From: a virus
Taxonomy: Duplodnaviria > Heunggongvirae > Uroviricota > Caudoviricetes
Length of the DNA stretch: 64,000 nucleotides
Virus record (IMG/VR): IMGVR_UViG_3300028832_000001
Location: 100,007-164,006 of that record
Direction: 5' to 3' (one strand)
The notes below the pieces were generated by a model. The model did not search any database. It was not told the origin of the DNA and was given only the letters and a program-made list of their open reading frames with translations. The translations under genes were made by a program, and so were the position numbers. This document shows positions 3,952 through 53,165 of this stretch, one piece after another (within the stretch, counting starts at the first letter, position 1; every line of letters begins with the position of its first letter).

Positions 3952-4959
3952 ATGAAATTAAAACTAGTATATAAATGTGAAATTTGTGGATTAAATGACT
4001 TAAATAAGCGTGGTTTAGGTACACATTTACAATTTAAACATTCTGATATTTCTAAAGAAACATATTATAAAAAATATTTAAAATGTATTGATGAAGATAC
4101 TTGTAAAGTTTGCGGGAAACCAACAAAATTTTTATCATTCAAAGTGGGATTTGCTAATTGCTGTTCAAAAGAATGTAGTAGAAAATGGAATAATAAAAGA
4201 ATACAAGATAGTAATTTAGATAAATTTGGGGTTAAAACACCATTTGAGTTAAAAGAAATACAAGAAAAAGTTAAAAATACAATAAAAGAAAAATACAATT
4301 GTGATAATATATTTCAAGTATCAGAAATAAAAGAAAAAATAAAACGGACATTAAAAGAAAAATATAATGTTGAGTACCCGTTAGAGTGTGAATTTTTTAA
4401 GAATAAAGCAAAAGAAACAACGTTTTTAAGATATGGTAATGAAAATTATAGAAATTCATTAAAAGCAGAAGAAACTTGTTTAAAAAACAACGGGGTTAGA
4501 CATCCGGCACAGTCAGGTATAATTGCGAAAAAAACAAGAAGTAAATATATTTATAATAATATAACATTTGATTCTAGTTGGGAACTTGCATATTATATTT
4601 GGTTAAAAGATCATAATATTAATTTTGAATATCATACAATAAAATTAGAATATGAATTTAATAATAATTTATATTATTATTTTCCTGATTTTTTGGTAGA
4701 AAATGATTTGATAGAAATTAAAGGCGATCAGTTTTTATCGGAAACTGGAAATTTAATTTCACCCTATAAAAATACTAATAATGAAAAATTAATTAAAAAA
4801 TTTGAATGCATGAAAAATAATAATGTAAAAATTATTTCTAAAATAGAAATAAAACCTATTATTTTATATATAAAAGAAAAATATGGAAAAAACTTTTTAA
4901 ATAAATTTAGGGAGAAAAATCAGAATGTTTCAGAAAACTGCAGAACTTCGTGGTCATAA
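3952..4959 (+). CDS. putative free-standing homing endonuclease (N-terminal C2H2/zinc-ribbon pair, tandem ~30-aa basic DNA-binding repeats, C-terminal PD-(D/E)xK-like nuclease)
   Basis: The N-terminus has a CxxC...HxxxH finger and a second CxxC...CC..C cluster. Repeats of the form FGVKTPFELKEIQEKVKNTIKEKYN / IFQVSEIKEKIKRTLKEKYNV follow. The C-terminus (WELAYYIWL...FPDFLV...DLIEIKG) is compatible with a D...(D/E)xK nuclease fold. The 3' end overlaps the terminase ORF by 35 nt. Confidence 0.45.
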   Translation: MKLKLVYKCEICGLNDLNKRGLGTHLQFKHSDISKETYYKKYLKCIDEDTCKVCGKPTKFLSFKVGFANCCSKECSRKWNNKRIQDSNLDKFGVKTPFELKEIQEKVKNTIKEKYNCDNIFQVSEIKEKIKRTLKEKYNVEYPLECEFFKNKAKETTFLRYGNENYRNSLKAEETCLKNNGVRHPAQSGIIAKKTRSKYIYNNITFDSSWELAYYIWLKDHNINFEYHTIKLEYEFNNNLYYYFPDFLVENDLIEIKGDQFLSETGNLISPYKNTNNEKLIKKFECMKNNNVKIISKIEIKPIILYIKEKYGKNFLNKFREKNQNVSENCRTSWS

Positions 4960-5845
4960 TGAGGTCGTAGAATTAACTAAAGAACAAATGGATGAATATG
5001 TAAAATGTTCTACAGATATTTTTTATTTTTCCAAATACTTTTATATTTTAAGTGATGAAGGTGAAGCGCCAATACATTTAAGAGAATACCAAGAACGTAT
5101 AGTTCGCTGTCTTGTTGGAAAATATTATGATAAAGAAGGTTCTATTAGAAATAATAGAATAATAATGCAAGGGCGACAGACAGGCAAGACTACTCTGGCC
5201 ACATTATATATTTTATGGTATGCACTTTTTAATGGAGACAAAACTATCGCTGTTCTGGCTAACAAGGAAGACCAAGCAAAAGAAATTATGTTGAGAATTC
5301 GCTCAGCTATTTTGAAACTTCCACTTTGGTTACAACAGGGAATTAATCCTGATAGAGGCGGTTGGTCAAAAGAAAGTATCGGTTTTGATAATGGAACTAA
5401 GATATTCTGTGCTGCTTCTGGTTCTTCTGCTATTAGAGGTAAATCTGTTGACTTGATGCTTGTCGACGAATTTGCATTCTTGCCTGAAGAAGAAGCTAAG
5501 GACTTTATTAAGTCAGTTTTCCCTACACAATCTGGTAGAAAGGATGCTATGATGATTCTTATTTCTACTCCGCATGGTATGAATGAATTTTATAACATCT
5601 GGATGAAAGCTATTTCTGGTGCAAGTTCTTATGTTCCTGCAAAGATTCAATGGTATGAAATTCCTGGAAGAGATGAAGCTTGGAAGAAGAGAATGATTCG
5701 AGACTTCGGTATTCAGATGTTCCAACAGGAATATGCTTGTTTAACTGGAGAACATAAAATAACAGTTCGATCCGAAGAAGGAATCGAACTAACGGAACCG
5801 ATTTCAAAACTATATGAACTTTGGATGGACGGTTTCTTAAGATAA
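4925..5845 (+). CDS. terL: terminase large subunit, ATPase domain only (T4 gp17 N-domain-like); nuclease domain not encoded contiguously
   Basis: Walker A (QGRQTGKTT) and Walker B (DLMLVDEFAF) are present. The order of blocks (YQERIV..., ILISTPHGMNEFYNIW, FQQEYACLTGE) parallels T4 gp17 residues ~130-360. The ORF stops right after the ATPase domain at a bidirectional terminator. Confidence 0.7.
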   Translation: MFQKTAELRGHNEVVELTKEQMDEYVKCSTDIFYFSKYFYILSDEGEAPIHLREYQERIVRCLVGKYYDKEGSIRNNRIIMQGRQTGKTTLATLYILWYALFNGDKTIAVLANKEDQAKEIMLRIRSAILKLPLWLQQGINPDRGGWSKESIGFDNGTKIFCAASGSSAIRGKSVDLMLVDEFAFLPEEEAKDFIKSVFPTQSGRKDAMMILISTPHGMNEFYNIWMKAISGASSYVPAKIQWYEIPGRDEAWKKRMIRDFGIQMFQQEYACLTGEHKITVRSEEGIELTEPISKLYELWMDGFLR

Positions 5846-7636: not shown

Positions 7637-8413
7637 ATGAAAAAAATCTATTCAATCTTTATTATGTTGGCGTTTGCACTCTTTACGGGTTGTACGACAG
7701 TCGACGAAACCGAAAGAGCAGTTGTTCTTGAATTCGGTAAGTACAGCGAAACTTTCGGACCAGGATTGCACTTCTATAATGTGTTCATGAAGAGCATTGT
7801 TACGATTCCCGTCAAAACACAGCTTGAAGCAAGCACATTCGAAGCAGGTTCTAAGGACCTTCAGCAAGTTGTTGTATCGTCAAACGTTAACTATCACGTA
7901 GATCCGCAAGCAGTTGGTAAGGTATATTCGAATTATGGTGTAAATTATGTTCAGACTATTCTTCAGCCTAAAATTAAGGAAACGGTTACGTCTATTACAC
8001 CACAGTATGTCCCTGAAGAAATGTTGCAGAAGCGAGAAGAAATTAATATTAGAATGAAAAATGCATTGAAGGCAAAGCTTGATTCTGCAGATGCACATAT
8101 TGTTATCGATGGTTTTACTGTAACTGGTTTCCAATTTACTCCTGCATTTAATTCTGCTATTGAAGAAAAGCAGGTTGCAGAACAGAAGGCATTGAAGGAA
8201 AAGAACGTTCTTAAGCAGATTGAATATCAGAATGAACAGAAGGTCGCAAAGGCAAGAGCTGATTCTACCGAAATGGCAATTAAGATGGCAACATTGAAGT
8301 CCCAGTCTGGCAAGGAATACTTGATGCTCAAGTGGATTGAAAAGTGGAATGGTCAGTTGCCGAATATGATGCCTGGTGATAACAAGATTATCCCAATGGT
8401 TAATGGACTTTAA
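7637..8413 (+). CDS. SPFH/band-7 (prohibitin/HflC-like) lipoprotein
   Basis: Lipoprotein signal peptide with lipobox (LFTGC). The mature protein begins with an SPFH-type segment (ERAVVLEFGKY...GPGLHF). The C-terminus is a coiled coil (QVAEQKALKEKN...). A promoter-like TATATTTAGGTCAAA lies upstream, and the SD is aaaaggaaaaa. Confidence 0.65.
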   Translation: MKKIYSIFIMLAFALFTGCTTVDETERAVVLEFGKYSETFGPGLHFYNVFMKSIVTIPVKTQLEASTFEAGSKDLQQVVVSSNVNYHVDPQAVGKVYSNYGVNYVQTILQPKIKETVTSITPQYVPEEMLQKREEINIRMKNALKAKLDSADAHIVIDGFTVTGFQFTPAFNSAIEEKQVAEQKALKEKNVLKQIEYQNEQKVAKARADSTEMAIKMATLKSQSGKEYLMLKWIEKWNGQLPNMMPGDNKIIPMVNGL

Positions 8414-39177: not shown

Positions 39178-42100
39178 ATGAAAAAGATAATCGGAATATT
39201 ATTAGTTTTAGCTGCATTTGTTTTTTCTGCAGACTATAAGCCGTTTAACTTTGAAACTATCCCACAAGATTCTGCAAGTCAACAGGATCAATTTGATTAT
39301 ATGCTTCAATATAAGTTATATGGTCATGATTTTATCAAAATGGGAAATGATGTTCGTATTCCAGACAAGTCAGGTTGGAATGGTACTGTAGGTAATATTA
39401 CTTCTAATGCAAGATTGACCTTGGGCGGTCCGATTCTTGCAAATGGTAGTATTTCTATGGGTGATGGTCCAAATAATATTACTGGACCAGTTCGCTCAGT
39501 CGATTTTGATCTTGGAAATGTAAATAATTCCAAAATCGCAAGCCCTGTTTGCTTAAGCGGAACCGCAAATGCTAATGCATTGTCTGCGATTGAAGATCAT
39601 AAGACTTATTCTTTCGATGCAAACATTTGTAAGGACAGCGTTCCTGCTGCACCTACAAATCTTTATATGCCGATTGTTGATTGGGATAATCTTGGTGCTG
39701 ATGTTAAGTTGGATGATATTGTTTTAAGTGGCAATGATGCTACAGATACTATTTTTGTTCCTAAAGGTGAAGGCGCATATAAGATTTTAATTGATAAGAT
39801 TCAGTTTGGCCTTGGCGGAACTAATGCAAGCCATTTGTATGTTAAGATGCAAGATGGCGGTAGATTGACCCAGATTTTCGTAAAGAATTTTATTTATGGA
39901 AATCATGCTACAATTCAGGTTGTTTATGATACTGACAGTGGAAGCGTAGTATTGAATCAGGACCAATATCGTGGTAACTTGATGTTCTATTCTAATAATG
40001 TTATCAGTTTTGATAATATGGACTATGCTCCTATTCAAGGTTCATTTATTTCTACTGATTCAATTTTCTTGGGAAGAAACGTTAATATTTCTGGTCAGTT
40101 ATTGACTAATAAGCTTGAAATTGGAAATGATATTGATGGTAAAAACTTCAGATTTGTTAAATTCGACCCTGATACAATCGATGTTAAGCTTGATAAGTAT
40201 GGTGGTTTGAGAGAAAATGATTCTACTGTTATTATTCCTATTGAACTAAGTGATACTGCTACTATCGCTGTATATTTTAGATATTGTTTTGATTTGAAAG
40301 ATGGTGTAACTGTTGAAGATTTTAATATTCCGCCTACATTCCCTATTTGTAACATCGATCAACCGAAAGAAGTATCTATTCCTATCGGTTCAAAGATTCC
40401 AAGTGATCCAATTAAGGTAAATGTTAAAGTCGATACATTGACAGAAAATGAATATCTTGTAATTAAGATTGATAGCATTTCTGGTGCTATTCTTCCTGAT
40501 GGTAAGACTGAAGGAGAATTAAAGATTAAGATTATTGACGCTCCTATTGGACATGTTGAATTTGATACTACAAAGACATATGAGTTTGAGGAAAATAAAC
40601 TTGGTGAAGTAGATGTAATCAAGATTTTAAATGGAACTGAAAATACTCGTTTCCATCTTGATAGTGCATATACTGATAGATATGAATTGGATAGCTTGAC
40701 TGGTAAGTTGACACTTATTGGTGAACCATTAGATTATGAAAAGGCTGCAATCGATGTTATTAAGGTTACATTGACTGATACTGGCAATGTAAGTGTAACT
40801 CGTAATATTCCTATTACAGTAATTGACGTTAATGAAGCACCTACTATCGATGATGTAACTGCTAATCTTCCGGAAAATCTTATTCATCCATTCATGGTTG
40901 AAAAGTTAGTTGCAAAAGATCCAGATACTAAGACAACATTTACTCAAAATGTTTTCAGTATGCTTGAAGGTGATACAAGCTTATTTAGAGTAGATTCTGA
41001 TGGTGAAATTTGGGCAAAGAAGACATTTGACTATGAAACTGATCAGAAAACCTATACTTTGAAGGTTTTGGTTCATGATAAGACTAATCCAGCATTGAAG
41101 GATAGTGCTATTGTTACTGTTAATATCACAAACAGCAATGATGGTCCTAAGTTTGACAGAAATGATACTACATTCCATGTAAATGAAAATGAACCATTTA
41201 AGGATAGTGTAAAGGCAACTGACCAGGATGGTGATAAGATTACTTATTCTATCATTGGAAGTGTTCCATTCAAAATTGATTCTACTGGCGTAATTACTTC
41301 TACTAGAACATTTGACTATGAAAAAGAAAAAGAATTTACATTCAAGGTCATTGCTGATGATGGTAAAGCAAAAGATACAATGACTGTAAATATTATAGTA
41401 GACAATGTAAATGAGCCTGTTCATACCAAAGATACAACTTTTGTTGTAGATGAAGGTAAAACTGGTGAAATCGGTAAAGTCAAAGGAGAAGATGAAGATG
41501 GAAAGCCTGTTAAATTTTCTTGCGATGATAGTGTGCATTACAGCATCGATACTAATACTGGTATTCTTAGACTGGTAGACCCATTTGACTATGAGATTAC
41601 AAAATCTGATACCATAAAGGTATTTGTTACTGATAGTCTATTTACAGATACTGCCATAGTTATTATTAATGTTAATAATGTAAATGAACCTCCTGTATTA
41701 CAGCCAAATGATTCTCTTACAGTTCCAGAAAATTGTAAGAATTGTATTGTTGGTATTATTACAGCAGTTGACCCTGACAGTGATAAGGTAATTTACGAAG
41801 TTAAGGAACCTGGTTTCACAATCGATACAAATGGAGTATTAAAGCTCACTGATCCTCTTGATTATGAGAAAACTCCAGAAGTTAAGATTACAGTTATTGC
41901 AAAGGATTCTAGTGGCGCAGCTGATACTGCCACCTATATAATTAAGATAACTGATATTAATGAACCAGTCCATGTTCAAGATACAACTTGTTCTGTAAAG
42001 GAAAATTATACTGGTAAGGTTTGCAAGATTACAGCAACTGATGAAGATAAAACAACTCCTAAATATATAATTACCGATACTACAAATTATTCTATCGATT

Positions 42101-43986
42101 CTACTGGTGTAATTACTATTAAGAACCCGATTGATTATGAAAAGAAGACTAAGGACACAGTAACTGTTATTGTAACTGATGACGAATTTTCTGATACCGC
42201 ACAGGTAATTATCAGAGTTCTCGATGAACCTGAAAAGGTTGAAATTACCACATGGGATGATGAAAAGCCTAAAGATACAGTAAAGACAAATGACCCAGAT
42301 CATAAGTTCGAATGGGAACTTTGTGAAGGTGATAGCTGTATTAAGCATGAAGAATTTCCGCATATCAAGAAAGATACAACTATCAAGGTATGTAATGATA
42401 AGAAGACTGTTTGTGATTCAGTTGTAGTTTTATTCAATGATGCACCTCCAGTTGTTACTTTGACAAATGCAAAGTCTACTGATGCATTGATTGACTATAT
42501 TACAATCGAAGAACAGAAGGACGATAAGATTTATGTCAACAAGAAAGAAAATCCAATTACTGTAACTGTTAGAGATACTGTTCATAAGACAGAAAAGAAA
42601 TTTGATATTAAAGTTAAGCTTGATACAATTCCTACTAAGGATATTAAGATTAAGGAATATAACTACTTGATTGATGAATCTCTTGCAACTCATACAGCAA
42701 TAGGTAACAATCTTATTGAAGTTTCTGAAGTTATTTCTGTTGACGGTAATAAGATAACAATTTCTAAGATTGTTGATAAGAAGACAATGGAACCAATCGA
42801 TACAGTTCAAACTGTTACTTATCATAAGAAGGTTGGTGGTAAGGACGTAGTTGTTTCTTATAAGACTGATAATCTTACTGGTCAGAGAGTTTCTGATTAT
42901 GAAATTTCTTACATGGCTGATTCTTGCACTAAGGTTACATATACTGTAAATGATAAGAAGGAAATTGTTAAGAATAAGGAAGGAAATATTGCATATAATA
43001 TCACTTATGATTATGTAGATGATTTTGGTAACAAAGCATCTGCATCAGTTGAAATTATCTTCGACGATATTCCGCCTAAGGTTGAAATTCTTGGACCTGG
43101 TCCAATGGAACATTTCAATACAAATGCAATTCCAGTTAAGTGGACAGTTAATGGCGAAACACAAGATACTTTGACATTACAGAGACTTGAAAAAGGTGTT
43201 AACTATATTATCAGAAGATATGTAGATAAGGCTGGTAACGTCGCTGCTGATACAGTCACAGTTCTTATGAATGAAGCCAAGGATATTGATATTGAAATTA
43301 TCAATCCAGTAACCAAGGTTGACCAGGATAAAGTTGATGAATATTATTCTGAAGGTCATAAGTATAATGATAAGAAACCGTTTGACGTCAAGTTTGTTGA
43401 CCCGAAGAACGATACAATTCCAGATGTAATTGGTGTTGGTTTCAAGGTTGATATTGTACTTCCGTCTGTTTCTCCTACTGGTTCTCTTGCAACATTGGAT
43501 GACATTGTAAAGAATGGTCAGATTCCAGTTGATGATAAGGGAAATATCGTTGGTGCTTCTACAAAGGGAATTCCAGTAGATAAGTATGTTGAAGAACATT
43601 GTACTGAAGAATTCCAGAAGGATTACGATAAGTATGGTTTGAATATTCCGCTTTATGACGTTACTTATAAACTTCATCTTTGGGTATATACAACTACTGC
43701 AAACTATGTAAATGATTTTAATATTGAATTTACATTGAATGATGAAGCTAAGACTACTACAGCAGGAACTGTCCAGATGGTTATCGACTGGTTGTCTGAT
43801 AAGGATGGAAACGTCAAGGCTAAGAACCATCATGCTTTAGGAACAGGCGCATATATAACCAAGTTGTTCAGCACTTCTGTTGCAAAACACCGTTGTGATT
43901 ATAAGGATCAAGTTAAGGGTGATAGAACTGTAAAGAAGGATGAAACAATGAAAACATTTGGTTATAAGCGACCAAACAACAAGTAA
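39178..43986 (+). CDS. giant secreted protein with multiple cadherin-like repeats
   Basis: Signal peptide (MKKIIGILLVLAAFVFSA). At least six domain junctions carry cadherin-type linker motifs (VIDVNEAPTI, NSNDGPKF, DNVNEPVHT, NVNEPPVL, DINEPVHV, LDEPEKV). Each is preceded by ...DYE(K/T)... blocks. 1602 aa. Confidence 0.6.
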   Translation: MKKIIGILLVLAAFVFSADYKPFNFETIPQDSASQQDQFDYMLQYKLYGHDFIKMGNDVRIPDKSGWNGTVGNITSNARLTLGGPILANGSISMGDGPNNITGPVRSVDFDLGNVNNSKIASPVCLSGTANANALSAIEDHKTYSFDANICKDSVPAAPTNLYMPIVDWDNLGADVKLDDIVLSGNDATDTIFVPKGEGAYKILIDKIQFGLGGTNASHLYVKMQDGGRLTQIFVKNFIYGNHATIQVVYDTDSGSVVLNQDQYRGNLMFYSNNVISFDNMDYAPIQGSFISTDSIFLGRNVNISGQLLTNKLEIGNDIDGKNFRFVKFDPDTIDVKLDKYGGLRENDSTVIIPIELSDTATIAVYFRYCFDLKDGVTVEDFNIPPTFPICNIDQPKEVSIPIGSKIPSDPIKVNVKVDTLTENEYLVIKIDSISGAILPDGKTEGELKIKIIDAPIGHVEFDTTKTYEFEENKLGEVDVIKILNGTENTRFHLDSAYTDRYELDSLTGKLTLIGEPLDYEKAAIDVIKVTLTDTGNVSVTRNIPITVIDVNEAPTIDDVTANLPENLIHPFMVEKLVAKDPDTKTTFTQNVFSMLEGDTSLFRVDSDGEIWAKKTFDYETDQKTYTLKVLVHDKTNPALKDSAIVTVNITNSNDGPKFDRNDTTFHVNENEPFKDSVKATDQDGDKITYSIIGSVPFKIDSTGVITSTRTFDYEKEKEFTFKVIADDGKAKDTMTVNIIVDNVNEPVHTKDTTFVVDEGKTGEIGKVKGEDEDGKPVKFSCDDSVHYSIDTNTGILRLVDPFDYEITKSDTIKVFVTDSLFTDTAIVIINVNNVNEPPVLQPNDSLTVPENCKNCIVGIITAVDPDSDKVIYEVKEPGFTIDTNGVLKLTDPLDYEKTPEVKITVIAKDSSGAADTATYIIKITDINEPVHVQDTTCSVKENYTGKVCKITATDEDKTTPKYIITDTTNYSIDSTGVITIKNPIDYEKKTKDTVTVIVTDDEFSDTAQVIIRVLDEPEKVEITTWDDEKPKDTVKTNDPDHKFEWELCEGDSCIKHEEFPHIKKDTTIKVCNDKKTVCDSVVVLFNDAPPVVTLTNAKSTDALIDYITIEEQKDDKIYVNKKENPITVTVRDTVHKTEKKFDIKVKLDTIPTKDIKIKEYNYLIDESLATHTAIGNNLIEVSEVISVDGNKITISKIVDKKTMEPIDTVQTVTYHKKVGGKDVVVSYKTDNLTGQRVSDYEISYMADSCTKVTYTVNDKKEIVKNKEGNIAYNITYDYVDDFGNKASASVEIIFDDIPPKVEILGPGPMEHFNTNAIPVKWTVNGETQDTLTLQRLEKGVNYIIRRYVDKAGNVAADTVTVLMNEAKDIDIEIINPVTKVDQDKVDEYYSEGHKYNDKKPFDVKFVDPKNDTIPDVIGVGFKVDIVLPSVSPTGSLATLDDIVKNGQIPVDDKGNIVGASTKGIPVDKYVEEHCTEEFQKDYDKYGLNIPLYDVTYKLHLWVYTTTANYVNDFNIEFTLNDEAKTTTAGTVQMVIDWLSDKDGNVKAKNHHALGTGAYITKLFSTSVAKHRCDYKDQVKGDRTVKKDETMKTFGYKRPNNK

Positions 43987-47682: not shown

Positions 47683-47712
47683 ATACGGGTTGAAAAACCG
47701 TATGGTTTTTCT
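47683..47712 (+). terminator. terminator-like hairpin (catacgggtt-gaaaa-accgtatg + T-run) after nrdD
   Basis: 8-bp stem then GTTTTTCT. It overlaps the first in-frame ATG of the following ORF, supporting a downstream start. Confidence 0.45.
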
Positions 47713-47734
47713 ATCTTTAAGCAAAAGGAAGCGA

Positions 47735-48028
47735 ATGTTAGATACTTTAATGTTAATCTGTGGTTTTTGTGGAGCTGGTGCTTTTGCAGTTTGTTCATTA
47801 CCACAAGTTATTAAAGCTTATAAAACTAAGTCGACAGGTGATATAAGTATTTTCTTTATTATCTTGTCAATTATCGGTAATTTATGTAGTGCTGCTTATA
47901 TATTCTATACTAATTATATAAGTGGAATGTGGCAATATCCGCAATATGTAAATTATACTTTGGCAACTATACTTATATTTATCCTTCTCGGGTTAAAACT
48001 AAAATATGATAAGGAAAATAAAAAATGA
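47735..48028 (+). CDS. SemiSWEET-like PQ-loop membrane protein (3-TM, ~97 aa)
   Basis: AFAVCSLPQVIKAYKTKSTGDISIFFIILSIIGN parallels the bacterial SemiSWEET core (FLPQV...TK.T.DIS). Three predicted TM helices. The start chosen is the ATG preceded by SD AAGGAAG; the ORF-track start at 47690 lies inside the nrdD terminator. Confidence 0.6.
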   Translation: MLDTLMLICGFCGAGAFAVCSLPQVIKAYKTKSTGDISIFFIILSIIGNLCSAAYIFYTNYISGMWQYPQYVNYTLATILIFILLGLKLKYDKENKK

Positions 48029-48684
48029 GTATAATGGATCTTATCGGTGTTCAAAGAGGAATTGATTTTGAACATAGTTTACCAACTGTAATGCGATATA
48101 AACCTGATATAAGAGAAGGTTATGAATATGGCAGTTTTGAACCTAAATATGGTCATACGCCAAATTGGCAACCTTTATGTAGTAATTCTTCAGACTTATA
48201 TAAAGAAATCGTTTTAGCATGTAAGCAGGTTGCAAAAGTTACAGAAATGAAAAATCCAATAGGTAATGATCCTTTTTGGCATCGTAGTGGACCTGAACGT
48301 GCAGGAACGATTGTTTCTAAGATAATACAGCTTTGTAATGATATTGCTATTGCTACTCGACAAGGTCAAGGCAATGTTATTGTATTAAATACTAAGATGT
48401 ATGATTTATTACGTGAGTTAACATTTGGTTTTATGGATTGCCCATTTATTTCTGAATCTGCTCCAGGCGTATTAAAGATTGTTGGAAGAGATGCTTTTAA
48501 AATGGATTTTGACGATTATTCAAATTATCCAGAAGCTATTATGACATATCATTCTAATAATTCGTGTGTATGTGGTGCTATTGCAGCACTTAGTCCTACC
48601 GAGACTTATTTTTCAATTAATACTGATATGGAAGGAACAGAGAATTATTATAGACTTTTAAGGGTAAAAGATGAATTACAGTAA
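48025..48684 (+). CDS. hypothetical protein, paralog A of a ~220-aa pair flanking nrdG
   Basis: 219 aa. Shares with 49152..49823 an N-terminal DLIGVQRG / DLIKVQKKDG block, a central ...V..I.....P.....E.R.G..L........A..T.R..G.ILIN...Y.LL.EL... block and a C-terminal YYRL block. Confidence 0.45.
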   Translation: MSIMDLIGVQRGIDFEHSLPTVMRYKPDIREGYEYGSFEPKYGHTPNWQPLCSNSSDLYKEIVLACKQVAKVTEMKNPIGNDPFWHRSGPERAGTIVSKIIQLCNDIAIATRQGQGNVIVLNTKMYDLLRELTFGFMDCPFISESAPGVLKIVGRDAFKMDFDDYSNYPEAIMTYHSNNSCVCGAIAALSPTETYFSINTDMEGTENYYRLLRVKDELQ

Positions 48685-49183
48685 AATTGATCCAATGAGT
48701 ATTGTCGATGGTGACGGTTGTCGAGTAACACTTTTTGTTTCAGGTTGTAGAAATCATTGTAAAGGGTGTTTTAATCCAGAAACATGGAATTTTGACTATG
48801 GTCAACCATATACAGAAATTACAGAAAATGAAATTATTGAAGCCTGTAAGAAATCATATATTGCTGGGTTAACTGTTCTTGGTGGAGAACCAATGGAAAA
48901 AGAAAACCAAGCAGAAATTTATAAACTCATTACTAATTTCAAACGTGCATATCCTGGTAAAAATGTTTGGTTATTTACTGGTTATATTTATGAAAAAGAT
49001 TTATTAGAAGGTCAGCGTCAAAATATAAATGGGTTAACTTCTTCTTTATTAGAAATGGTTGATATTCTGGTTGACGGACCATTTATTCTTGAACAGAGAG
49101 ATTTGAATTTAAAGTTTAGGGGAAGCACGAATCAAAGGCTATTAACAAGAGATGAAAGACAAAGGTTACAAAATGACAATTAA
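48671..49183 (+). CDS. nrdG: anaerobic RNR activating enzyme (radical SAM)
   Basis: CRNHCKGC (CxxxCxxC) after DGDGCRVTLFVSGC. LTVLGGEP follows. 170 aa, immediately after the nrdD neighbourhood. Confidence 0.8.
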   Translation: MNYSKIDPMSIVDGDGCRVTLFVSGCRNHCKGCFNPETWNFDYGQPYTEITENEIIEACKKSYIAGLTVLGGEPMEKENQAEIYKLITNFKRAYPGKNVWLFTGYIYEKDLLEGQRQNINGLTSSLLEMVDILVDGPFILEQRDLNLKFRGSTNQRLLTRDERQRLQNDN

Positions 49184-49823
49184 AGACTTAATTAAAGTCC
49201 AGAAGAAAGACGGATTATTTAAAAACTGTGCATCCGTTTTAAGATATATTCCAAGAGAACTATTATTCGATGGTAGAGAAGCTGACCGTCCAGAATTAAC
49301 ATTGGGTCTTGAAAGACAACTTATCCATGAAAAAGATTGGAAAGATGCAAGTGATGAAAGTAAGAAAGAATTAGATGTAATTCATGCATGTATGGATGTT
49401 GCTAATGTTATTGAAATTCACAAAGATCCAGAGTCTACTGCTTCTAAAGAAGAACGTTGTGGTGTATTGTTGACTAATTTAATGAAGGAATGTAATTCTA
49501 TTAGAACAAGTACTCGCCGTTGTGCAGGTAATTATATTCTTATCAATAATGCATTTAAGAAAGAATTAGAAGAACTTGGTGCATTTTCAACTCCATTTAT
49601 TAATGTTTCAACTGATAACACTGAATATCTTGTTAATGGTGTTATTAAAATGAGTGTTGCAACATTTGATGAAGATACACCAATGGCATTAATCGGATAT
49701 TCTGGAACTAGTAGGTTTGATGGTGGAATCGTTTTAGCAGAAGACGAAGAAAATAATAAGTATGCGATTGCTGACCGATTCTACGATAGTGATAAGTATT
49801 ATAGATTAATTAAACTTGTATAG
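49152..49823 (+). CDS. hypothetical protein, paralog B of the ~220-aa pair
   Basis: 223 aa. Paralogous to 48025..48684 (see that entry). Ends ...DKYYRLIKLV. Confidence 0.45.
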   Translation: MKDKGYKMTIKDLIKVQKKDGLFKNCASVLRYIPRELLFDGREADRPELTLGLERQLIHEKDWKDASDESKKELDVIHACMDVANVIEIHKDPESTASKEERCGVLLTNLMKECNSIRTSTRRCAGNYILINNAFKKELEELGAFSTPFINVSTDNTEYLVNGVIKMSVATFDEDTPMALIGYSGTSRFDGGIVLAEDEENNKYAIADRFYDSDKYYRLIKLV

Positions 49824-49826
49824 AAT

Positions 49827-50756
49827 ATGAGATATATTAAAGGGAGAAGTAATTTAAGTTGCACAATTTTTGTGCCATGGGATTGTAATAATCATTGCAA
49901 GTTCTGTACATCTAAGCAGATGTATAAACAAAGAACTTGTGATATTAATGCAATTCTTGCACAAATCAAAAAACTTAATGAAAATCCGTTAATTGAAGAA
50001 TTTGTATTAACAGGTGGAGAACCATTAGCAGATATTGAGAAATGTCAGATTCTTATTGACGCTATGGAGAAACCTGTTTATATCAATACTACATTCCCAA
50101 CATTTACAGATTTGCCTGGAACAGTAGAAATGTCTAAAGTCAAGACGTTAATCGATTTCATTAATAATAATGAAAAGATTGGTGGTTTGAATATTTCCAG
50201 ACATATGCATCAACAGTTTTATGAACCAGTTTTGCCAGTAGATATGTTTGCACATTTAATTAAGAAACATATTAAATTAAATGTAGTTCTTTCTAAGGAG
50301 TTTAATATAAACGAATTTAAAGCGTTTATAGAACCTTATAAAGAATTAGAAAATCTATCTATCTGTATTAGAGCAGATTATCGGAATATTACTAAAGATA
50401 ACTTAAAGAATCGTGACGATGTATTTGAAAAGTTAATTTTAGAATATGAATATGAAAGTTCTGGCGGATGTATGGTTTGTAATGACGATAGATTTTGGAA
50501 TAATAATTTATTAATCAGTTATCATCGTGGAATGGAACATTCTAAAGTAGTTTATGGTAATAAGATATTTGTAAATGATATTTTGATTACTATTGATGGA
50601 CAAGTTTATGATGACTGGGATTTAGTAACAAATACAGAATTTGAAAGATGGGTATTTGGCGAATATTTATTGACAGATGATATATCTGAATATGAAAATG
50701 ATCCAGTATATATTGATTGGTTATTGAAAAAGAATGGTGAAGAAGGTATATTATGA
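49827..50756 (+). CDS. second radical-SAM enzyme (N-terminal CxxxCxxC, no obvious SPASM/RRE); function unknown
   Basis: VPWDCNNHCKFC at aa 17-28, FVLTGGEPLA at aa ~60, and a lone CMVC pair at ~aa 212. 309 aa. The stop overlaps the start of the Cys/Gly peptide ORF (ATGA). Confidence 0.6.
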   Translation: MRYIKGRSNLSCTIFVPWDCNNHCKFCTSKQMYKQRTCDINAILAQIKKLNENPLIEEFVLTGGEPLADIEKCQILIDAMEKPVYINTTFPTFTDLPGTVEMSKVKTLIDFINNNEKIGGLNISRHMHQQFYEPVLPVDMFAHLIKKHIKLNVVLSKEFNINEFKAFIEPYKELENLSICIRADYRNITKDNLKNRDDVFEKLILEYEYESSGGCMVCNDDRFWNNNLLISYHRGMEHSKVVYGNKIFVNDILITIDGQVYDDWDLVTNTEFERWVFGEYLLTDDISEYENDPVYIDWLLKKNGEEGIL

Positions 50757-50953
50757 CATTAACTGAATTACGACAAAAACTTAAAACCGCAGGTATGAAA
50801 CAACTTAAAATTACTGGTTGTGGTGGATATGTAGGATGTGGAACTGGTGGTTATTATGACTATGCCAATGCACATTTTGGAAATCCTCCACAATGGGTAT
50901 CGTATAGTTGCGGATTTTATATGAGATGTGGTGGTCCTACTACATGTGGTTAA
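50753..50953 (+). CDS. Cys/Gly-rich 66-aa peptide with SAP/HeH-like N-terminal helix (candidate rSAM substrate / RiPP-like precursor)
   Basis: MTLTELRQKLKTAGMKQLKITG followed by CGGYVGCGTGGYYDYANAHFGNPPQWVSYSCGFYMRCGGPTTCG (6 Cys, 11 Gly). Translationally coupled to the rSAM ORF. Confidence 0.45.
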   Translation: MTLTELRQKLKTAGMKQLKITGCGGYVGCGTGGYYDYANAHFGNPPQWVSYSCGFYMRCGGPTTCG

Positions 50954-50956
50954 AAA

Positions 50957-50985
50957 GAAAGAGTCAAGAAAACCTTGACTCTTTT
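50957..50985. terminator. bidirectional terminator (aaagagtcaag-aaaacc-ttgactcttt)
   Basis: 10-bp inverted repeat between the convergent peptide gene and the minus-strand paralog operon. Confidence 0.55.
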
Positions 50986-50993
50986 TATATTAT

Positions 50994-51605
50994 TTAAATT
51001 GATGGTTTAACATGTGTTATAGGCAGTCTAAGTAATTTATCTGGAAGTATATTTAATTTTGAAAGTAATGTATATGCGACTTCACGACTAATACCAGATT
51101 CATATAAAGTTTCAATTATTTCAACTGTTCTTATCTCGCTAGTTTTTATTTTACGTGCAAGTTTATAAATTTTAGTGAATTTAGAATAGTCATTACTTTC
51201 ATTTATATTAATTATAATTTTGCCAGTTTTAGGATTTTTATATTCTGCACAACCATAATATGAATTATATCCAGTAAATTCATATCTTTTATTTTTGACA
51301 ATAATAGTTGCTGGTGTTTCATCTTCATCATCGTCATAATAATAACTGCCACAACCGCTACTATGACAACTAGAAACATATCCGCAACCTACTCTGACAC
51401 TTCTGGATATTGTACCACATCCACCACCATAACTACTGCTACTACCACATCCAGAACTATAGCTGGAACCGCAACCACTGCTGCCGCACCCAGAACTATA
51501 ACTGCTGCTTCCGCTACAACCACCACTATAACTACCGCATTCATTAAGCCTACGAACAGTGTAGCCTTTATTTTTAAGTAATTCTCTTGCTTCTAATAAA
51601 TTCAT
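50994..51605 (-). CDS. motif-family paralog 4: N-terminal MNLLEARELLKNKGY helix + (S/G/C)-rich low-complexity core with repeated SSGCG units
   Basis: 203 aa. Residues ~20-95 read NECGSYSGGCSGSSSYSSGCGSSGCGSSYSSGCGSSSSYGGGCGTISRSVRVGCGYVSSCHSSGCGSYYYDDDEDE (13 Cys). A normal-composition C-terminal domain follows. Confidence 0.5.
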   Translation of the reverse strand: MNLLEARELLKNKGYTVRRLNECGSYSGGCSGSSSYSSGCGSSGCGSSYSSGCGSSSSYGGGCGTISRSVRVGCGYVSSCHSSGCGSYYYDDDEDETPATIIVKNKRYEFTGYNSYYGCAEYKNPKTGKIIININESNDYSKFTKIYKLARKIKTSEIRTVEIIETLYESGISREVAYTLLSKLNILPDKLLRLPITHVKPSI

Positions 51606-51619
51606 AAATGCCCCTTACA

Positions 51620-51994
51620 TTAGAACAACCAGTCTAATTCTATCATTACTCCCCATTTACAATATCTAATAGTTACATCAAAGCCTCGTTCTTTTGCAAG
51701 TTTAAAGTATTTTTTAAATATTGTAGGATTATCTTCGTATTCTTTATCATGTACTATAATACCTGTACTACCTTCTTCATATTTAGCATGACCATATTTA
51801 ACATTTGATAATATAGCATCAAGGCCAACAAGTTTTGATTCTTCTGCAGTAAGTTCATTTTTTATTGCAGTAAATTCATCAAACAGTAATTTTTGTTTGT
51901 CAGAATCTAATTTTATTGGGGCTTCTTCAAGTTCTTCTTTAATAATAGCATAGCCATTATCTTTAAGTAATTCTGTTGCTTCTTGTAAGTTCAT
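51620..51994 (-). CDS. motif-family paralog 3 (MNLQEATELLKDNGYAI...)
   Basis: 124 aa. The N-terminal 17 aa match the family motif. The remainder is unique. Confidence 0.45.
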   Translation of the reverse strand: MNLQEATELLKDNGYAIIKEELEEAPIKLDSDKQKLLFDEFTAIKNELTAEESKLVGLDAILSNVKYGHAKYEEGSTGIIVHDKEYEDNPTIFKKYFKLAKERGFDVTIRYCKWGVMIELDWLF

Positions 51995-52007
51995 TTTAAA
52001 TCCTTTA

Positions 52008-52442
52008 TTAAAAATTATTTAAAAATGCATGCATTATTGCACCTTTTTGGTAAATAGCATTACATTCTTCATAAACTGCTTTTTTGCTTTTTAGTTTCTT
52101 AAAGTCTTCTTCAGTTAATGGATTAGGATCTTCAGATTTCCAACCTAATTCCCATGCTTCCTGTAGGTCTTTTTTAGGGGTATCATAGTCTTTGCAATAA
52201 CGTTTTAAAACAATTTCACCAATATCTTTACCGGTATCGTTCAATTCTTTTTCAGAGAGAATGGTATTTTGATAGCCTATTTGGACGGTATTCTGTGCCC
52301 AAGAAGAATTTATAAGTTTAGAACGATATGCTAGATAATCATCGGCACTATTAAAACGTATTTCAGATTCATTCATTACAGGTTTATCTATAACCTTGTA
52401 ATGATTTTCTTTTAATATAGATATAGCTTCTTTTAAGTTCAT
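52008..52442 (-). CDS. motif-family paralog 2 (MNLKEAISILKENHYKV...)
   Basis: 144 aa. N-terminal family motif, unique C-terminal domain. Confidence 0.45.
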   Translation of the reverse strand: MNLKEAISILKENHYKVIDKPVMNESEIRFNSADDYLAYRSKLINSSWAQNTVQIGYQNTILSEKELNDTGKDIGEIVLKRYCKDYDTPKKDLQEAWELGWKSEDPNPLTEEDFKKLKSKKAVYEECNAIYQKGAIMHAFLNNF

Positions 52443-52460
52443 AAGAGTATTCTTTAAATA

Positions 52461-53096
52461 TTAGAGTTCTTCGTTAATTCTATCAGCAGCATCTTGTGGA
52501 GCAATAAGACCTTGATTATAAAGGTCAGCAGCAATTTGCTTTGCCCTTGGTAAATCTTCATCATCGAGCATACCACCATCTTCCTGAGCTAAAGATAGAG
52601 CCTTAGCAATATAGTCTTCTTCAGCATTTGGAACCATAGTTTCGATTTCATCATCGTCAATCGGTGCAAATTCCATTTCATCAAAGAAAAGTTCAATCTT
52701 ACGGCCAGGTTTCTTTTCTTCTCTGACATAACCAAGTTCCTTAAGAACTTCAGACCATTGTGTATTTTTGTATGTTCTTAGGCGAGACTTTACAAAAGCA
52801 ATTTCACGTGGAGTCAAAACTTCACCATTCTGAACTTTTTCTGCTAATGGAGAAAGATAAGCAGCATCAGTTTGGTTAAAACCCCTATAATTACGTAAAA
52901 CGGTACGTCTACCTTGCTTTTCGAAATCTACCTGACGTCCATACATACCAATGAGAAGAACAATAACGAACTTATCATTTTCCAAATATTCCTTAATTCG
53001 CTGATTAAGCTGGAAATTTGATGTATAAACATCTTCCTTTATGATTTTATAACCGTGTTCTTTAATAACTTTAATAGCTTCTGCCATTTTTTTCAT
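52461..53096 (-). CDS. motif-family paralog 1 (MKKMAEAIKVIKEHGYKII...), first gene of the late operon
   Basis: 211 aa. TATAAATA at 53116-53123 (minus) lies 19 nt upstream with SD AAGGAGA. The acidic C-terminus also contains a second loosely similar helix (AKQIAADLYNQGLI). Confidence 0.45.
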   Translation of the reverse strand: MKKMAEAIKVIKEHGYKIIKEDVYTSNFQLNQRIKEYLENDKFVIVLLIGMYGRQVDFEKQGRRTVLRNYRGFNQTDAAYLSPLAEKVQNGEVLTPREIAFVKSRLRTYKNTQWSEVLKELGYVREEKKPGRKIELFFDEMEFAPIDDDEIETMVPNAEEDYIAKALSLAQEDGGMLDDEDLPRAKQIAADLYNQGLIAPQDAADRINEEL

Positions 53097-53115: not shown

Positions 53116-53165
53116 TATTTATAAGATAAAAACAGATTATATCCGATTATTTTGAGTTATAAATA
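53116..53165. promoter_or_regulatory. divergent pair of T4-late-type TATAAATA motifs (53116-53123 minus; 53158-53165 plus)
   Basis: Each lies 19-24 nt upstream of its gene start, driving the paralog operon leftward and the 1128-aa fiber operon rightward. Confidence 0.4.

What the first reader, a model, noticed from the sequence alone, without database searches (positions are those of the whole stretch)
49827..53096. Radical-SAM enzyme translationally coupled to a Cys/Gly-rich peptide, convergent with a late operon of leader-sharing paralogs
A second rSAM (CNNHCKFC), distinct from NrdG, ends in an ATGA overlap with a 66-aa ORF. That ORF has a conserved N-terminal helix and a core with 6 Cys and 11 Gly in 44 residues. 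Across a shared terminator sits a four-gene operon. Every product starts with the same ~17-aa helix (M-N-L-x-E-A-x-x-L-L-K-x-x-G-Y-x-h). The terminal member carries a 75-aa (SSGCG)n core with 13 Cys. Conserved leader, variable Cys-rich core and an adjacent rSAM is the layout of multi-precursor RiPP systems such as prochlorosin-like or ranthipeptide-like ones. Here it is phage-encoded and the rSAM lacks SPASM/RRE. This could be an undescribed phage post-translational modification system, e.g. thioether or Cys-derived crosslinking of virion or ejected proteins. It could also be a metal-binding or Fe-S protein family maturated by the rSAM.
Basis: partly seen in the sequence, partly recalled or inferred. 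Interest (0 to 1): 0.85.

Follow-up and report, generated by a model that had tools for sequence, protein, structure and literature searches.

The report
Phage radical-SAM enzyme with Cys-Gly-repeat partner

Summary
All the ORFs, the ATGA overlap and the shared terminator are real. The Cys counts were too high: 5, not 6, in the 66-aa peptide, and 9 in the core of the 203-aa protein, not 13.

The 309-aa enzyme is a true radical-SAM protein. It misses every curated family cut-off and has no SPASM or RRE domain. Its C-terminal beta domain carries an invariant C-x2-C-x14-H.

Its link to Cys-Gly repeats defines the family:
- 70 of 137 diverse relatives (50%-identity representatives) carry a [G/S]-C-G repeat tail fused to their C-terminus, and 53 of those end in Cys.
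- 13 of 17 unfused lineages have a Cys-Gly ORF adjacent.
- One relative has lost the enzyme and the small peptide together.

So the 66-aa ORF is a split-off tail. It is most likely the enzyme's substrate, as in a borosin-like RiPP, or else a sacrificial co-substrate.

The "leader" (MNLxEAKxxLKxxGY…[LIF]-x-E) is not specific to this enzyme. At least 41 unrelated phage proteins start with it, mostly Cys-poor and in contigs where no such enzyme was found. It resembles the T4 capsid-targeting sequence with its L/I-x-E protease site.

The multi-precursor RiPP reading is therefore only partly supported. The chemistry is unknown.

The parts
49827..50756 (+). Radical-SAM enzyme, 309 aa. It has C20-x3-C24-x2-C27 and GGEP, plus a C-terminal beta-hairpin domain with invariant C215-x-V-C218, H233-R-G and D263-W264. 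It is the last-but-one gene of the tightly packed NrdD / PQ-loop / Gp23-like / NrdG / Gp23-like / rSAM / peptide gene string.
50753..50953 (+). 66-aa Cys-Gly peptide. It is the split-off equivalent of the C-terminal Cys-Gly tail that half of the family carries fused. It has a degenerate tag-like N-terminus (MTLTELRQKLKTAGMKQLKITG), then 5 Cys-Gly units, and ends ...TTCG.
   Evidence: ATGA overlap. All 5 Cys-Gly pairs are invariant, indels are in frame, and synonymous roughly equals nonsynonymous codon changes in 5 variants. Equivalent ORFs lie downstream of rSAMs at 38-70% identity. Fused tails occur in 70 of 137 representatives. It is lost together with the rSAM in L133.
50956..50986 (.). Bidirectional intrinsic-terminator hairpin shared by the two convergent transcription units.
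   Evidence: Terminator scan: 13-pair and 12-pair stems on the two strands, each followed by a T-run. Sequence read directly.
50994..51605 (-). 203-aa protein. From N to C: N-terminal tag MNLLEARELLKNKGYTVRRLNE, an S/G/Y-rich core with 9 [G/S]-C-G-type Cys, an acidic stretch YYYDDDEDE, then a ~100-aa conserved C-terminal domain of unknown function. It is a probable additional target of the rSAM.
   Evidence: 40 homologues were found. The tag and the first Cys-Gly are invariant, and the repeat number varies by whole-unit indels. It lies convergent to rSAM plus peptide in a different genomic neighbourhood in L134 and L002. In L133 it persists without the rSAM.
51620..51994 (-). 124-aa tagged protein (MNLQEATELLKDNGYAIIKEE...) with 1 Cys and no Cys-Gly repeats. 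It belongs to the tagged gene array and is probably not an rSAM substrate.
   Evidence: In L005 its body is joined to an ...RRLNECG junction, showing modular shuffling.
52008..52442 (-). 144-aa tagged protein (MNLKEAISILKENHYKVIDK...) with 2 Cys and no Cys-Gly repeats. It shares ...RYCK...ELxW with the 124-aa protein.
52461..53096 (-). 211-aa protein with a diverged tag (MKKMAEAIKVIKEHGYKIIKED) and no Cys. Its body matches phrog_21015, function unknown.
   Evidence: The L133 homologue has the same body but a different N-terminus.
53116..53123 (-). TATAAATA box ~20 nt upstream of the tagged operon, a promoter-like element. A second copy at 53158-53165 (+) faces the divergent 1128-aa fibre-like gene.
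   Evidence: 27 copies in the window against 14.8 expected, and 0 of 100 shuffles reach 27. Many lie just upstream of start codons.

Best explanation
Two separate things are superimposed here.

(1) An rSAM / Cys-Gly-repeat module. The 309-aa enzyme belongs to an undescribed, mostly phage-borne radical-SAM subfamily. Its defining partner is an intrinsically disordered stretch of [G/S]-C-G units spaced 5-11 residues apart, which usually ends in Cys at or next to the C-terminus. In about half of the family this stretch is the enzyme's own C-terminal tail. In this window it has been split off as the translationally coupled 66-aa ORF.

Inferred mechanism: the reduced [4Fe-4S]/SAM site makes 5'-deoxyadenosyl radical. 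That radical abstracts an H atom in or next to a Cys-Gly unit of the flexible tail or peptide, which threads in from its C-terminal end. The Gly residues flanking each Cys give access. The invariant C-x2-C-x14-H hairpin holds an auxiliary metal or cluster site that positions the substrate thiolate. The most likely outcome is a Cys-centred modification repeated along the chain, such as a thioether or other crosslink, Cys oxidation or desulfurisation, or epimerisation. This is RiPP-like and recognises the repeat rather than a leader. It acts on itself in fused forms (borosin-like logic) and in trans here. The neighbouring 203-aa Cys-Gly-repeat protein is a probable second target.

(2) An N-terminal tag. 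The shared helix MNLxEAKxxLKxxGY-h-h-(x)-E is a lineage-wide tag of giant-phage proteins and is independent of the rSAM. Its best-fitting role is a T4-CTS-like propeptide that directs assorted small proteins into the prohead and is removed at [L/I/F]-x-E. On that reading the 203-aa protein would be a packaged, ejected protein whose mature N-terminus starts at Cys-Gly.

Shown: the genetic linkage, the fusions, the motif anatomy, and the tag's independence from the rSAM. Inferred: that the repeats are the substrate, the type of chemistry, and the targeting role of the tag.
For: rSAM identity and fold.

Linkage of the rSAM to Cys-Gly repeats:
- Cys-Gly ORFs lie directly downstream of, or convergent to, rSAMs of 38-97% identity in 13 of 17 unfused lineages examined.
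- Rosetta-stone fusions occur in 14 of the 120 listed homologues and in 70 of 137 representatives at 50% identity. The family has 208 clusters at E<=1e-30.
- In those fused tails, 53 of 70 end in Cys and 15 more have Cys in the last 3 residues. Tails carry 3-11 Cys.

Motif anatomy:
- In 24 cores and tails collected by hand, the residue after Cys is Gly for 112 of 129 non-terminal Cys, and the residue before is Gly or Ser for 96 of 143. Cys-Cys spacing is mostly 5-11, and only 6 of 119 spacings are 3 or shorter.
- The 70 fused tails show the same pattern.
- The tail is predicted to be disordered.

The module behaves as a unit:
- rSAM plus small peptide plus tagged Cys-Gly protein(s) recur in a different neighbourhood in L134 and L002.
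- The rSAM and the small peptide are absent together in L133.
- Partner N-termini vary between lineages or are missing altogether, which argues for recognition of the repeats themselves.

The tag:
- 22 IMG/VR loci and 41 distinct ORFs start with the motif but have unrelated bodies.
- 37 of 41 have [LIVFM]-x-E ending at residue 18-22.
- Tagged genes occur in tandem arrays (L116, L118). One tagged protein has a transglycosylase domain that hits 'internal virion protein with endolysin domain'.
- The window encodes T4-type TerL, a tail sheath stabiliser, UvsX and a gp32-like SSB.
- The T4 precedent, diverse internal proteins sharing only a CTS and cleaved by gp21 at L/I-X-E, is described in PMC3012670 and PMC9026906.
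Against: - No chemistry is shown. Nothing tells substrate apart from co-substrate or cofactor.
- The AF2 model of a natural fusion did not dock the tail into the enzyme.
- Three unfused lineages (L010, L024, L025) have no Cys-Gly ORF nearby, and L129 is ambiguous.
- The 203-aa family occurs once without an adjacent rSAM, so its dependence on the enzyme is uncertain.
- No prohead protease or major capsid gene was identified in the window, so the CTS reading rests on analogy.
- The motif sits internally, not at the N-terminus, in some partners (L004/L009...LSEALREALERRGIVF). A similar LKT-GM[RK] stretch that I saw by eye lies in the linker of the fused relative P0023. BLASTP did not report it. 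This keeps a docking or leader role possible.
- The absence of the rSAM from tag-rich contigs rests on a pattern-seeded scan, not on complete annotation.
Confidence: 0.55

Rival explanations
1. The Cys-Gly tail or peptide is not the product but a working part of the enzyme. It could be a flexible multi-Cys arm that donates sulfur or H atoms sacrificially, one Cys per turnover. It could instead ligate an auxiliary Fe-S or 'dangler' metal site through its C-terminal Cys, or relay electrons. On this reading the real substrate is a third molecule, such as a nucleotide, DNA/RNA or a metabolite.
For: - Half of the family has the tail fused, and 53 of 70 fused tails end exactly in Cys. This suggests a C-terminal arm that reaches into the active site.
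- The enzyme's own C-terminal domain offers only C-x2-C...H, an incomplete ligand set that a tail thiolate could complete.
- The number of Cys varies from 3 to 11, as expected for a consumable cartridge.
- The tail is disordered without a cofactor.
- In this window the gene is co-operonic with the NrdD/NrdG nucleotide-metabolism genes.
Against: - Spacings of 3 residues or fewer, the CxxC/CxC type typical of Fe-S or metal sites, are rare: 6 of 119.
- Length, spacing and composition are hypervariable.
- Cys-Gly repeats also occur in separately encoded proteins up to 220 aa that carry other domains and an N-terminal tag, with two or three such genes per locus. That fits targets better than cofactors.
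- No candidate third substrate or pathway gene is conserved around the rSAM across lineages.
- The NrdDG neighbourhood is specific to this lineage.
Confidence: 0.25
2. One reading: a multi-precursor RiPP system in which the shared N-terminal helix is the leader recognised by the rSAM, and all four operon products plus the 66-aa peptide are its substrates.
For: - Tagged Cys-Gly proteins sit next to the rSAM in several relatives.
- The 66-aa peptide has a degenerate version of the tag.
- Related helix-Gly-aromatic motifs precede the repeats in L004 and L009 and, by eye, in the linker of fused P0023.
- The tag-plus-first-Cys-Gly region weakly resembles an internal segment of the enzyme family. 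The comparison was to P0023 residues 186-215, with E 0.01 for a single comparison.
Against: - The tag heads at least 41 unrelated, mostly Cys-poor proteins in contigs where no rSAM of this family was found.
- The 211-aa product has no Cys, and its homologue swaps the tag for another N-terminus.
- Many partners are leaderless or fused.
- No RRE is present.
- Neither the tag-bearing proteins nor an artificial doubled tag hit any Pfam model through the tag (Nif11 was the leader model in question). The only weak Nif11 match, 18 bits against a cut-off of 23.8, is internal to the 124-aa protein.
Confidence: 0.1
3. The adjacency has no chemical meaning. On this reading the Cys/Gly/Ser/Tyr-rich segments are low-complexity structural or disulfide- or metal-crosslinked linkers, and the rSAM has an unrelated job.
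For: - Low-complexity sequence can arise easily.
- The 203-aa family persists without the rSAM in L133.
- The chemistry is untested.
Against: - Fusion in 70 of 137 diverse representatives, with a positional constraint of C-terminal Cys.
- Adjacency in 13 of 17 unfused lineages across 38-97% identity and changing neighbourhoods.
- Joint loss of the enzyme and the small peptide.
Confidence: 0.05

Closest known systems
Radical-SAM RiPP maturases acting on Cys-rich precursors (sactipeptide and ranthipeptide/SCIFF synthases such as SkfB, CteB and PapB; also the YydG/EpeE epimerase)
   Same: - An rSAM enzyme encoded next to a small Cys-rich peptide.
- Several modification sites per peptide.
   Different: - No SPASM or twitch Cys set. 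Only C-x2-C...H is conserved, in a beta domain with no sequence relative.
- No RRE and no constant leader.
- The substrate motif is [G/S]-C-G with spacing 5-11 and a C-terminal Cys.
- Half of the family is fused to its peptide.
- The family is mostly phage-borne.
- All curated NCBIfam maturase models score far below their cut-offs.
Borosin-type autocatalytic RiPP precursors (OphMA-like enzyme-core fusions; from my own knowledge, not tested here)
   Same: The modifying enzyme carries its own substrate as a C-terminal tail in some members, while other members are split into enzyme plus a separate peptide.
   Different: Borosins are SAM N-methyltransferases, not radical-SAM enzymes. Here the tail is a low-complexity repeat, and no release protease is evident.
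T4 internal proteins with a capsid targeting sequence (CTS), cleaved by the prohead protease gp21 at L/I-X-E
   Same: - Tandem, fast-evolving small genes whose products share only a short N-terminal sequence ending in [L/I]-x-E (PMC3012670 and PMC9026906).
- The phage has T4-type core genes.
   Different: - The tag is 18-22 aa (MNLNEAKQLLKKNGYLLE), against 10 aa (MKTYQEFIAE, from memory) in T4, with no sequence similarity.
- Packaging and cleavage are untested.
- No protease gene was seen in the window.
MoaA (GTP 3',8-cyclase)
   Different: NCBIfam moaA scores 25.9 bits against a cut-off of 284. The third ligand is His, not Cys. There is no molybdopterin gene context.
NrdG / glycyl-radical activases, and QueE
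   Same: Fer4_12-type N-terminal cluster region. The enzyme sits in the same operon as NrdD/NrdG in this window.
   Different: Scores are far below cut-off: NrdG2 33 against 131, QueE 21 against 300. A genuine NrdG is encoded separately at 48671-49183. The neighbourhood is not conserved in relatives.

Membership tests
Radical SAM superfamily | CxxxCxxC cluster motif and Pfam PF04055 above its gathering score | tested here: met
   C20NNHC24KFC27. PF04055 scores 35.2 bits against 29.5. The three Cys are invariant in 28 and 36 homologues.
Radical SAM superfamily | Partial TIM-barrel rSAM fold | tested here: met
SPASM/twitch rSAM maturases (sacti-/ranthipeptide, anSME, PqqE type) | C-terminal SPASM (7-Cys) or twitch auxiliary-cluster domain | tested here: not met
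   No SPASM Pfam hit. Only C215, C218 and H233 are invariant after the core. The C-terminal domain profile finds no PDB relative. Whether C-x2-C...H binds a cluster cannot be tested here.
RiPP systems with leader/RRE recognition | RRE (PqqD-like) domain or protein that binds a conserved leader | tested here: not met
   No PqqD/RRE hit in the rSAM or its neighbours. Partner N-termini differ between lineages or are absent.
RiPP systems (general) | Precursor peptide gene co-localised with the modifying enzyme | tested here: met
   13 of 17 unfused lineages have an adjacent Cys-Gly ORF, and 70 of 137 representatives are fused.
RiPP systems (general) | Post-translational modification of the core peptide by the enzyme | not testable with these tools
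   Needs anaerobic reconstitution and mass spectrometry.
NrdG / glycyl-radical enzyme activases | Curated NCBIfam equivalog score | tested here: not met
   TIGR02495 scores 33.3 bits against 131.15. TIGR02491 scores 22.2 against 126.1. The real NrdG is at 48671-49183.
QueE / MoaA / viperin (housekeeping or antiviral rSAM) | Curated NCBIfam equivalog score | tested here: not met
   QueE 20.7 against 300. MoaA 25.9 against 284. Viperin 13.7 against 180.
T4-type capsid-targeting propeptide (CTS) | Short N-terminal sequence shared by otherwise unrelated small phage proteins | tested here: met
   41 distinct ORFs with unrelated bodies, arranged in tandem arrays.
T4-type capsid-targeting propeptide (CTS) | Ends in the prohead-protease motif L/I-X-E | tested here: met
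   37 of 41 have [LIVFM]-x-E ending at residue 18-22. The motif definition comes from PMC9026906.
T4-type capsid-targeting propeptide (CTS) | gp21-type prohead protease and scaffold core encoded by the same phage | not tested
   No such hit among the 44 window ORFs scanned. The genome is probably ~415 kb, and the rest was not available.
T4-type capsid-targeting propeptide (CTS) | Tagged proteins are packaged in the head and the tag is cleaved off | not testable with these tools
   Needs virion proteomics.
Nif11-type RiPP leader | Pfam Nif11 (PF07862) match over the N-terminal leader | tested here: not met
   The only match, 18 bits against a cut-off of 23.8, is internal, at residues 98-109 of the 124-aa protein. 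No tag-bearing protein, nor an artificial doubled tag, hit Nif11 through its N-terminus.

The most novel reading that the evidence does not exclude
A new class of phage radical chemistry. A SPASM-less rSAM subfamily installs a previously unseen Cys-centred modification, for example a thioether or thiomorpholinone-type crosslink or a conversion of the C-terminal Cys, on [G/S]-C-G repeat tails and peptides. In this giant phage one modified protein also carries a CTS-like tag, so it is packed into the capsid and injected into the host. That would make it the first RiPP-like post-translational modification of phage ejected proteins. The tag itself would be a new portable capsid-targeting signal for huge phages of anaerobes.
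Probability: 0.25. Interest if true: 0.88.

Novelty: new variant of a known kind. Interest (0 to 1): 0.72.

Why it matters
If the repeats are substrates, this is an uncharacterised rSAM reaction on a very simple, portable motif. A G-C-G unit or a C-terminal Cys needs no leader or RRE, which makes it attractive for peptide engineering. It would also extend RiPP-like biosynthesis to giant phages of anaerobic gut and rumen bacteria.

If the repeats are sacrificial arms, it would be a new design for a single-protein radical enzyme that carries its own consumable co-substrate.

Separately, the MNLxEAKxxLKxxGY…LxE tag marks a large, fast-shuffling set of small proteins in uncultivated huge phages. 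If it is a capsid-targeting propeptide, ejected proteins, which are likely anti-defence effectors, could be predicted from sequence alone in phages nobody can grow. It would also give a handle for loading cargo into such capsids.

Tried and rejected
- Nucleotide and protein searches of INPHARED found no related phage for the locus, and only two unannotated faecal contigs at ~30% identity for the rSAM.
- Pfam, PHROGs and NCBIfam on the 66-aa peptide and seven other Cys-Gly peptides found no family.
- AF2 of the natural fusion P0093, run to see whether the tail docks in the active site, gave a tail with pLDDT <40 and so no information.
The BFVD search gave only generic viral rSAM hits, including Campylobacter phage rSAMs at low TM-scores.
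- The idea that the tag is a HicA-like N-terminus, which was my recollection, got no Pfam support even at E<=10 and was dropped.
- The idea that the tag is a Nif11 leader was not supported.
- A profile search with tag N-termini against the 5.8-billion-protein set collected only 50 candidates, and the 13 that passed E<=10 are short fragments. It was uninformative.
- The bacterial ~30%-identity clade (Oscillospiraceae, Acidaminococcus, Megasphaera; >400 loci) was checked as a possible clue to function. It has no Cys-Gly partner. In the one member read (Megasphaera, L097) the C-terminal motifs differ: C-x3-C and YHKT. I treat it as a separate subfamily.
- Four literature searches found no description of this family or of the tag.

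Full report
**1. Observation**

- The rSAM (49827-50756, 309 aa, CNNHCKFC) ends in an ATGA overlap with a 66-aa ORF at 50753-50953.
- A 12-13-bp bidirectional hairpin terminator (50956-50986) separates it from four minus-strand genes of 203, 124, 144 and 211 aa.
- Three of these start MNLxEA..LLK..GY. The fourth has a shifted, diverged version.
- The Cys counts were too high. The 66-aa peptide has 5 Cys. The 203-aa protein has 10, of which 9 lie in a ~63-aa irregular S/G/Y-rich core.
- 'Late operon' is unproven. A TATAAATA box precedes the operon. The box is enriched in the window (27 copies against 14.8 expected). It also precedes a helicase gene and lies upstream of NrdD.

The window comes from a T4-like-in-parts, 32%-GC uncultivated phage.
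- It encodes a T4-type TerL N-domain, a tail sheath stabiliser, UvsX, a gp32-like SSB, DnaB and NrdD/NrdG.
- An identical copy of the 203-aa protein sits on a 415,750-bp contig.
- INPHARED holds no relative.

**2. The enzyme**

- Pfam gives only Radical_SAM (above cut-off) and Fer4_12. PHROGs gives weak generic hits.
- Every NCBIfam model is far below its cut-off: NrdG2 33 against 131, MoaA 26 against 284, QueE 21 against 300, viperin 14 against 180, and the peptide maturases at or below 26 bits.
- A 28-sequence alignment shows invariant C20/C24/C27, GGEP, NT, NxSRH and RxD. After the barrel it shows C215-x-V-C218, H233-R-G, D251 and D263-W264.
- The AF2 model is confident, pLDDT 90.2. It is an rSAM barrel plus a beta-hairpin C-terminal domain.
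- The best PDB sequence matches are YydG and MoaA, over the core only.
- A profile of the C-terminal domain alone finds nothing in the PDB.

So this is a real rSAM of an undescribed subfamily. It has no SPASM or RRE but may have a C-x2-C-x14-H metal or cluster site. The likeness to MoaA's C-x2-C-x13-C is from my memory only.

**3. The link to Cys-Gly repeats defines the family**

Adjacent Cys-Gly ORFs:
- A 70%-identical rSAM (L002) is followed by a 65-aa peptide with YIGCG repeats ending SCG. A convergent 113-aa MNL-tagged, Cys/Ser/Gly-rich protein lies beyond it.
- A 44%-identical one, on a 269-kb JGI copy of the contig (L004; its IMG/VR version, L008, is 317 kb), is followed by a 142-aa protein ending ...RCGGGGC.
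- Across IMG/VR, GTDB and metagenome loci, 13 of 17 unfused lineages at 38% identity or more have such an ORF directly downstream, convergent, or one gene away. L010, L024 and L025 do not, and L129 is ambiguous.

Fusions:
- Many relatives carry the repeats fused to their own C-terminus.
- An exhaustive profile search found 208 clusters at E<=1e-30. Of 137 representatives with an intact core, 70 have fused Cys-Gly tails.
- Those tails hold 3-11 Cys (median 5) and are 33-195 aa long. 53 of 70 end exactly in Cys, and 15 more have Cys in the last three residues.

Motif anatomy:
- Of the Cys that are not C-terminal, 87% in 24 hand-collected cores and 68% in the fused tails are followed by Gly. The residue before is usually Gly, Ser or Thr.
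- Cys-Cys spacing is mostly 4-11, and CxxC/CxC is rare.
- AF2 predicts the tail to be disordered.
- No curated family covers any of these peptides.

The 66-aa ORF is therefore best read as a split-off tail. It is under constraint: five invariant Cys-Gly pairs, in-frame indels, and substitutions confined to the spacers.

**4. The module moves and is lost as a unit**

- In L134 the block of rSAM, 65-aa peptide and two convergent tagged Cys-Gly proteins lies in a neighbourhood with no NrdD/NrdG.
- In L133, a relative with the same NrdD...NrdG neighbourhood, both the rSAM and the small peptide are missing. An unrelated 80-aa ORF takes their place. The 205-aa Cys-Gly protein remains.
- The enzyme-peptide pair is thus the core unit. 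The 203-aa family is an associated member, not an obligate one.

**5. The 'leader' is a general tag**

- A degenerate DNA pattern for M-N-[L/F]-x-E-A-x3-[L/F]-K-x2-G-Y found 22 IMG/VR loci.
- With a slightly looser protein pattern, the loci held contain 41 distinct ORFs that begin with this motif.
- Their bodies are unrelated (87-336 aa). One carries a 2OG-Fe(II) oxygenase domain and one a transglycosylase domain that hits 'internal virion protein with endolysin domain'. Most have no family.
- They form tandem arrays (L116, L118). They occur several times in contigs of 142-424 kb, none of which appeared in the rSAM scan.
- 37 of 41 have [LIVFM]-x-E ending at residue 18-22, for example GYLLE|F, GYKLIKE|D and RRLNE|CG.
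- The tag is modular. L005 joins the ...RRLNECG junction to the body of the 124-aa protein. In L133 the 211-aa body has a different N-terminus.
- rSAM partners in other lineages have other N-termini (MSRxFIIDDD...ERLLE), none at all (MCGYSN...), or are fused.

This pattern matches T4 internal proteins. Those are diverse proteins that share only a capsid targeting sequence, which gp21 removes at L/I-X-E (PMC3012670 and PMC9026906).

Caveats:
- No protease or capsid gene was found in the window.
- Packaging is untested.
- Related helix-Gly-aromatic motifs occur internally in some partners and, by eye, in the linker of fused P0023. A docking role cannot be excluded.

**6. Mechanism (inferred)**

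The enzyme most likely works on the Cys of [G/S]-C-G units in a flexible chain that enters from its C-terminal end.

Reasons to favour the repeats as the substrate, in a borosin-like logic that acts on itself when fused and in trans when split:
- The repeats also occur in separate proteins of up to 220 aa with other domains and tags.
- Two or three such genes can occur per locus.
- The spacing does not suit a compact metal site.

The main rival is that the tail is a working arm: a sacrificial sulfur or H donor, a ligand for an incomplete C-x2-C...H site, or an electron relay. The prevalence of fusions and the terminal Cys fit that reading well.

The type of chemistry cannot be decided in silico. 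Candidates are a thioether or other crosslink, desulfurisation, formylglycine, epimerisation and C-terminal decarboxylation.

**7. Comparison and novelty**

- It works like an rSAM RiPP maturase with its precursor. It fails the tests for SPASM/twitch, RRE-leader, NrdG, QueE, MoaA and viperin membership.
- I found no description of the family or of the tag in Pfam, NCBIfam, PHROGs or the paper library.
- I rate it a new variant of a known kind, with a fair chance of new chemistry.
- The N-terminal tag is a second finding that can be tested independently.

Noticed in passing
window 48025-48684 and 49152-49823 (+): Two ~220-aa paralogues (28% identical) flank NrdG. One has a Pfam match above cut-off and the other a sub-threshold match to the middle of the T4 major capsid protein Gp23 profile. 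They look like truncated MCP-like proteins sitting inside the NrdD-NrdG-rSAM gene string. They are conserved in close relatives (L103, L132, L133) but not next to the rSAM in other lineages.
   Followed up: partly
window, 27 sites, e.g. 3940, 13200, 16033, 24788, 39140, 45105, 53116(-), 53158(+): TATAAATA, the T4 late-promoter consensus, is enriched: 27 copies against 14.8 expected, and 0 of 100 shuffles reach 27. Many copies lie 10-40 nt upstream of start codons on the coding strand. These include replication genes, so it may be this phage's general promoter element.
   Followed up: partly
L116:1-13635 and L118:6310-9004 (IMG/VR contigs 3300031867_006326 and 3300028887_000071): Tandem arrays of 4 small genes that all start with the MNLNEAK..LK..GY tag. 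One of them (L118:8159-9004, 281 aa) has a hydrophobic segment and a transglycosylase domain that hits 'internal virion protein with endolysin domain'.
   Followed up: partly
L005 (152-aa ORF starting at 8086, minus strand) and L133:3266-3898: The tag is shuffled between genes. L005 joins the ...GYTVRRLNECG junction of the Cys-Gly protein to the body of the 124-aa protein. In L133 the 211-aa body carries a different N-terminus (MQTFREMVDKVLKDDINLNE) that still ends in L-N-E.
   Followed up: partly
window 50753-50842 against P0023 residues 186-215 (equivalent to window rSAM ~190-220): In a BLASTP comparison, the tag plus the first Cys-Gly of the 66-aa and 203-aa proteins weakly resembles a segment of the fused relative P0023 (56% identical to the window rSAM). 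That segment runs ...LKNRDxVFxxLxxxFEYxGSSGCxVC and contains the invariant Cys. E is 0.01 for a single comparison. This could be chance, or a hint that the partner mimics or derives from this segment.
   Followed up: no
window 51620-51994 (-), residues 93-110 of the 124-aa protein: An internal second copy of a tag-like motif (FKLAKERGFDVTI) gives a sub-threshold Pfam Nif11 match, 18 bits against a cut-off of 23.8.
   Followed up: no
L028-L102 (GTDB genomes) and L018-L022: There is a large, ~30%-identical bacterial clade of this rSAM in Oscillospiraceae, Acidaminococcus and Megasphaera chromosomes. It has no Cys-Gly partner. In the one member read (L097) the C-terminal motifs are altered. A conserved 191-aa gene lies directly upstream in 21 loci, and an alpha/beta-type-SASP-like gene (my reading of the sequence) lies nearby in 10.
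   Followed up: partly
L004:5520-5918: A Tad2-like (anti-Thoeris sponge family) gene lies immediately upstream of the rSAM in a 269-kb phage contig. DNA methyltransferases lie downstream. This hints that the module can sit in anti-defence neighbourhoods.
   Followed up: no
window 4925-5845, 39178-43986, 47690-48028, 7637-8413: Other oddities in the window: a 306-aa ORF holding only the T4-type TerL ATPase N-domain (possibly a split terminase), a 1602-aa cadherin-repeat protein, a PQ-loop membrane protein between NrdD and NrdG, and an SPFH/Band-7 protein.
   Followed up: no
L130:4822-5133, L026:5815-6108, L004:7027-7455, L009:3091-3441: rSAM partners in other lineages share a second N-terminal type, M-S-[RK]-x-h-F-I-[ID]-D-D-...-A-x-x-I/L-E-x-x-L-E. 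It could be another lineage-specific tag or a true recognition element.
   Followed up: no
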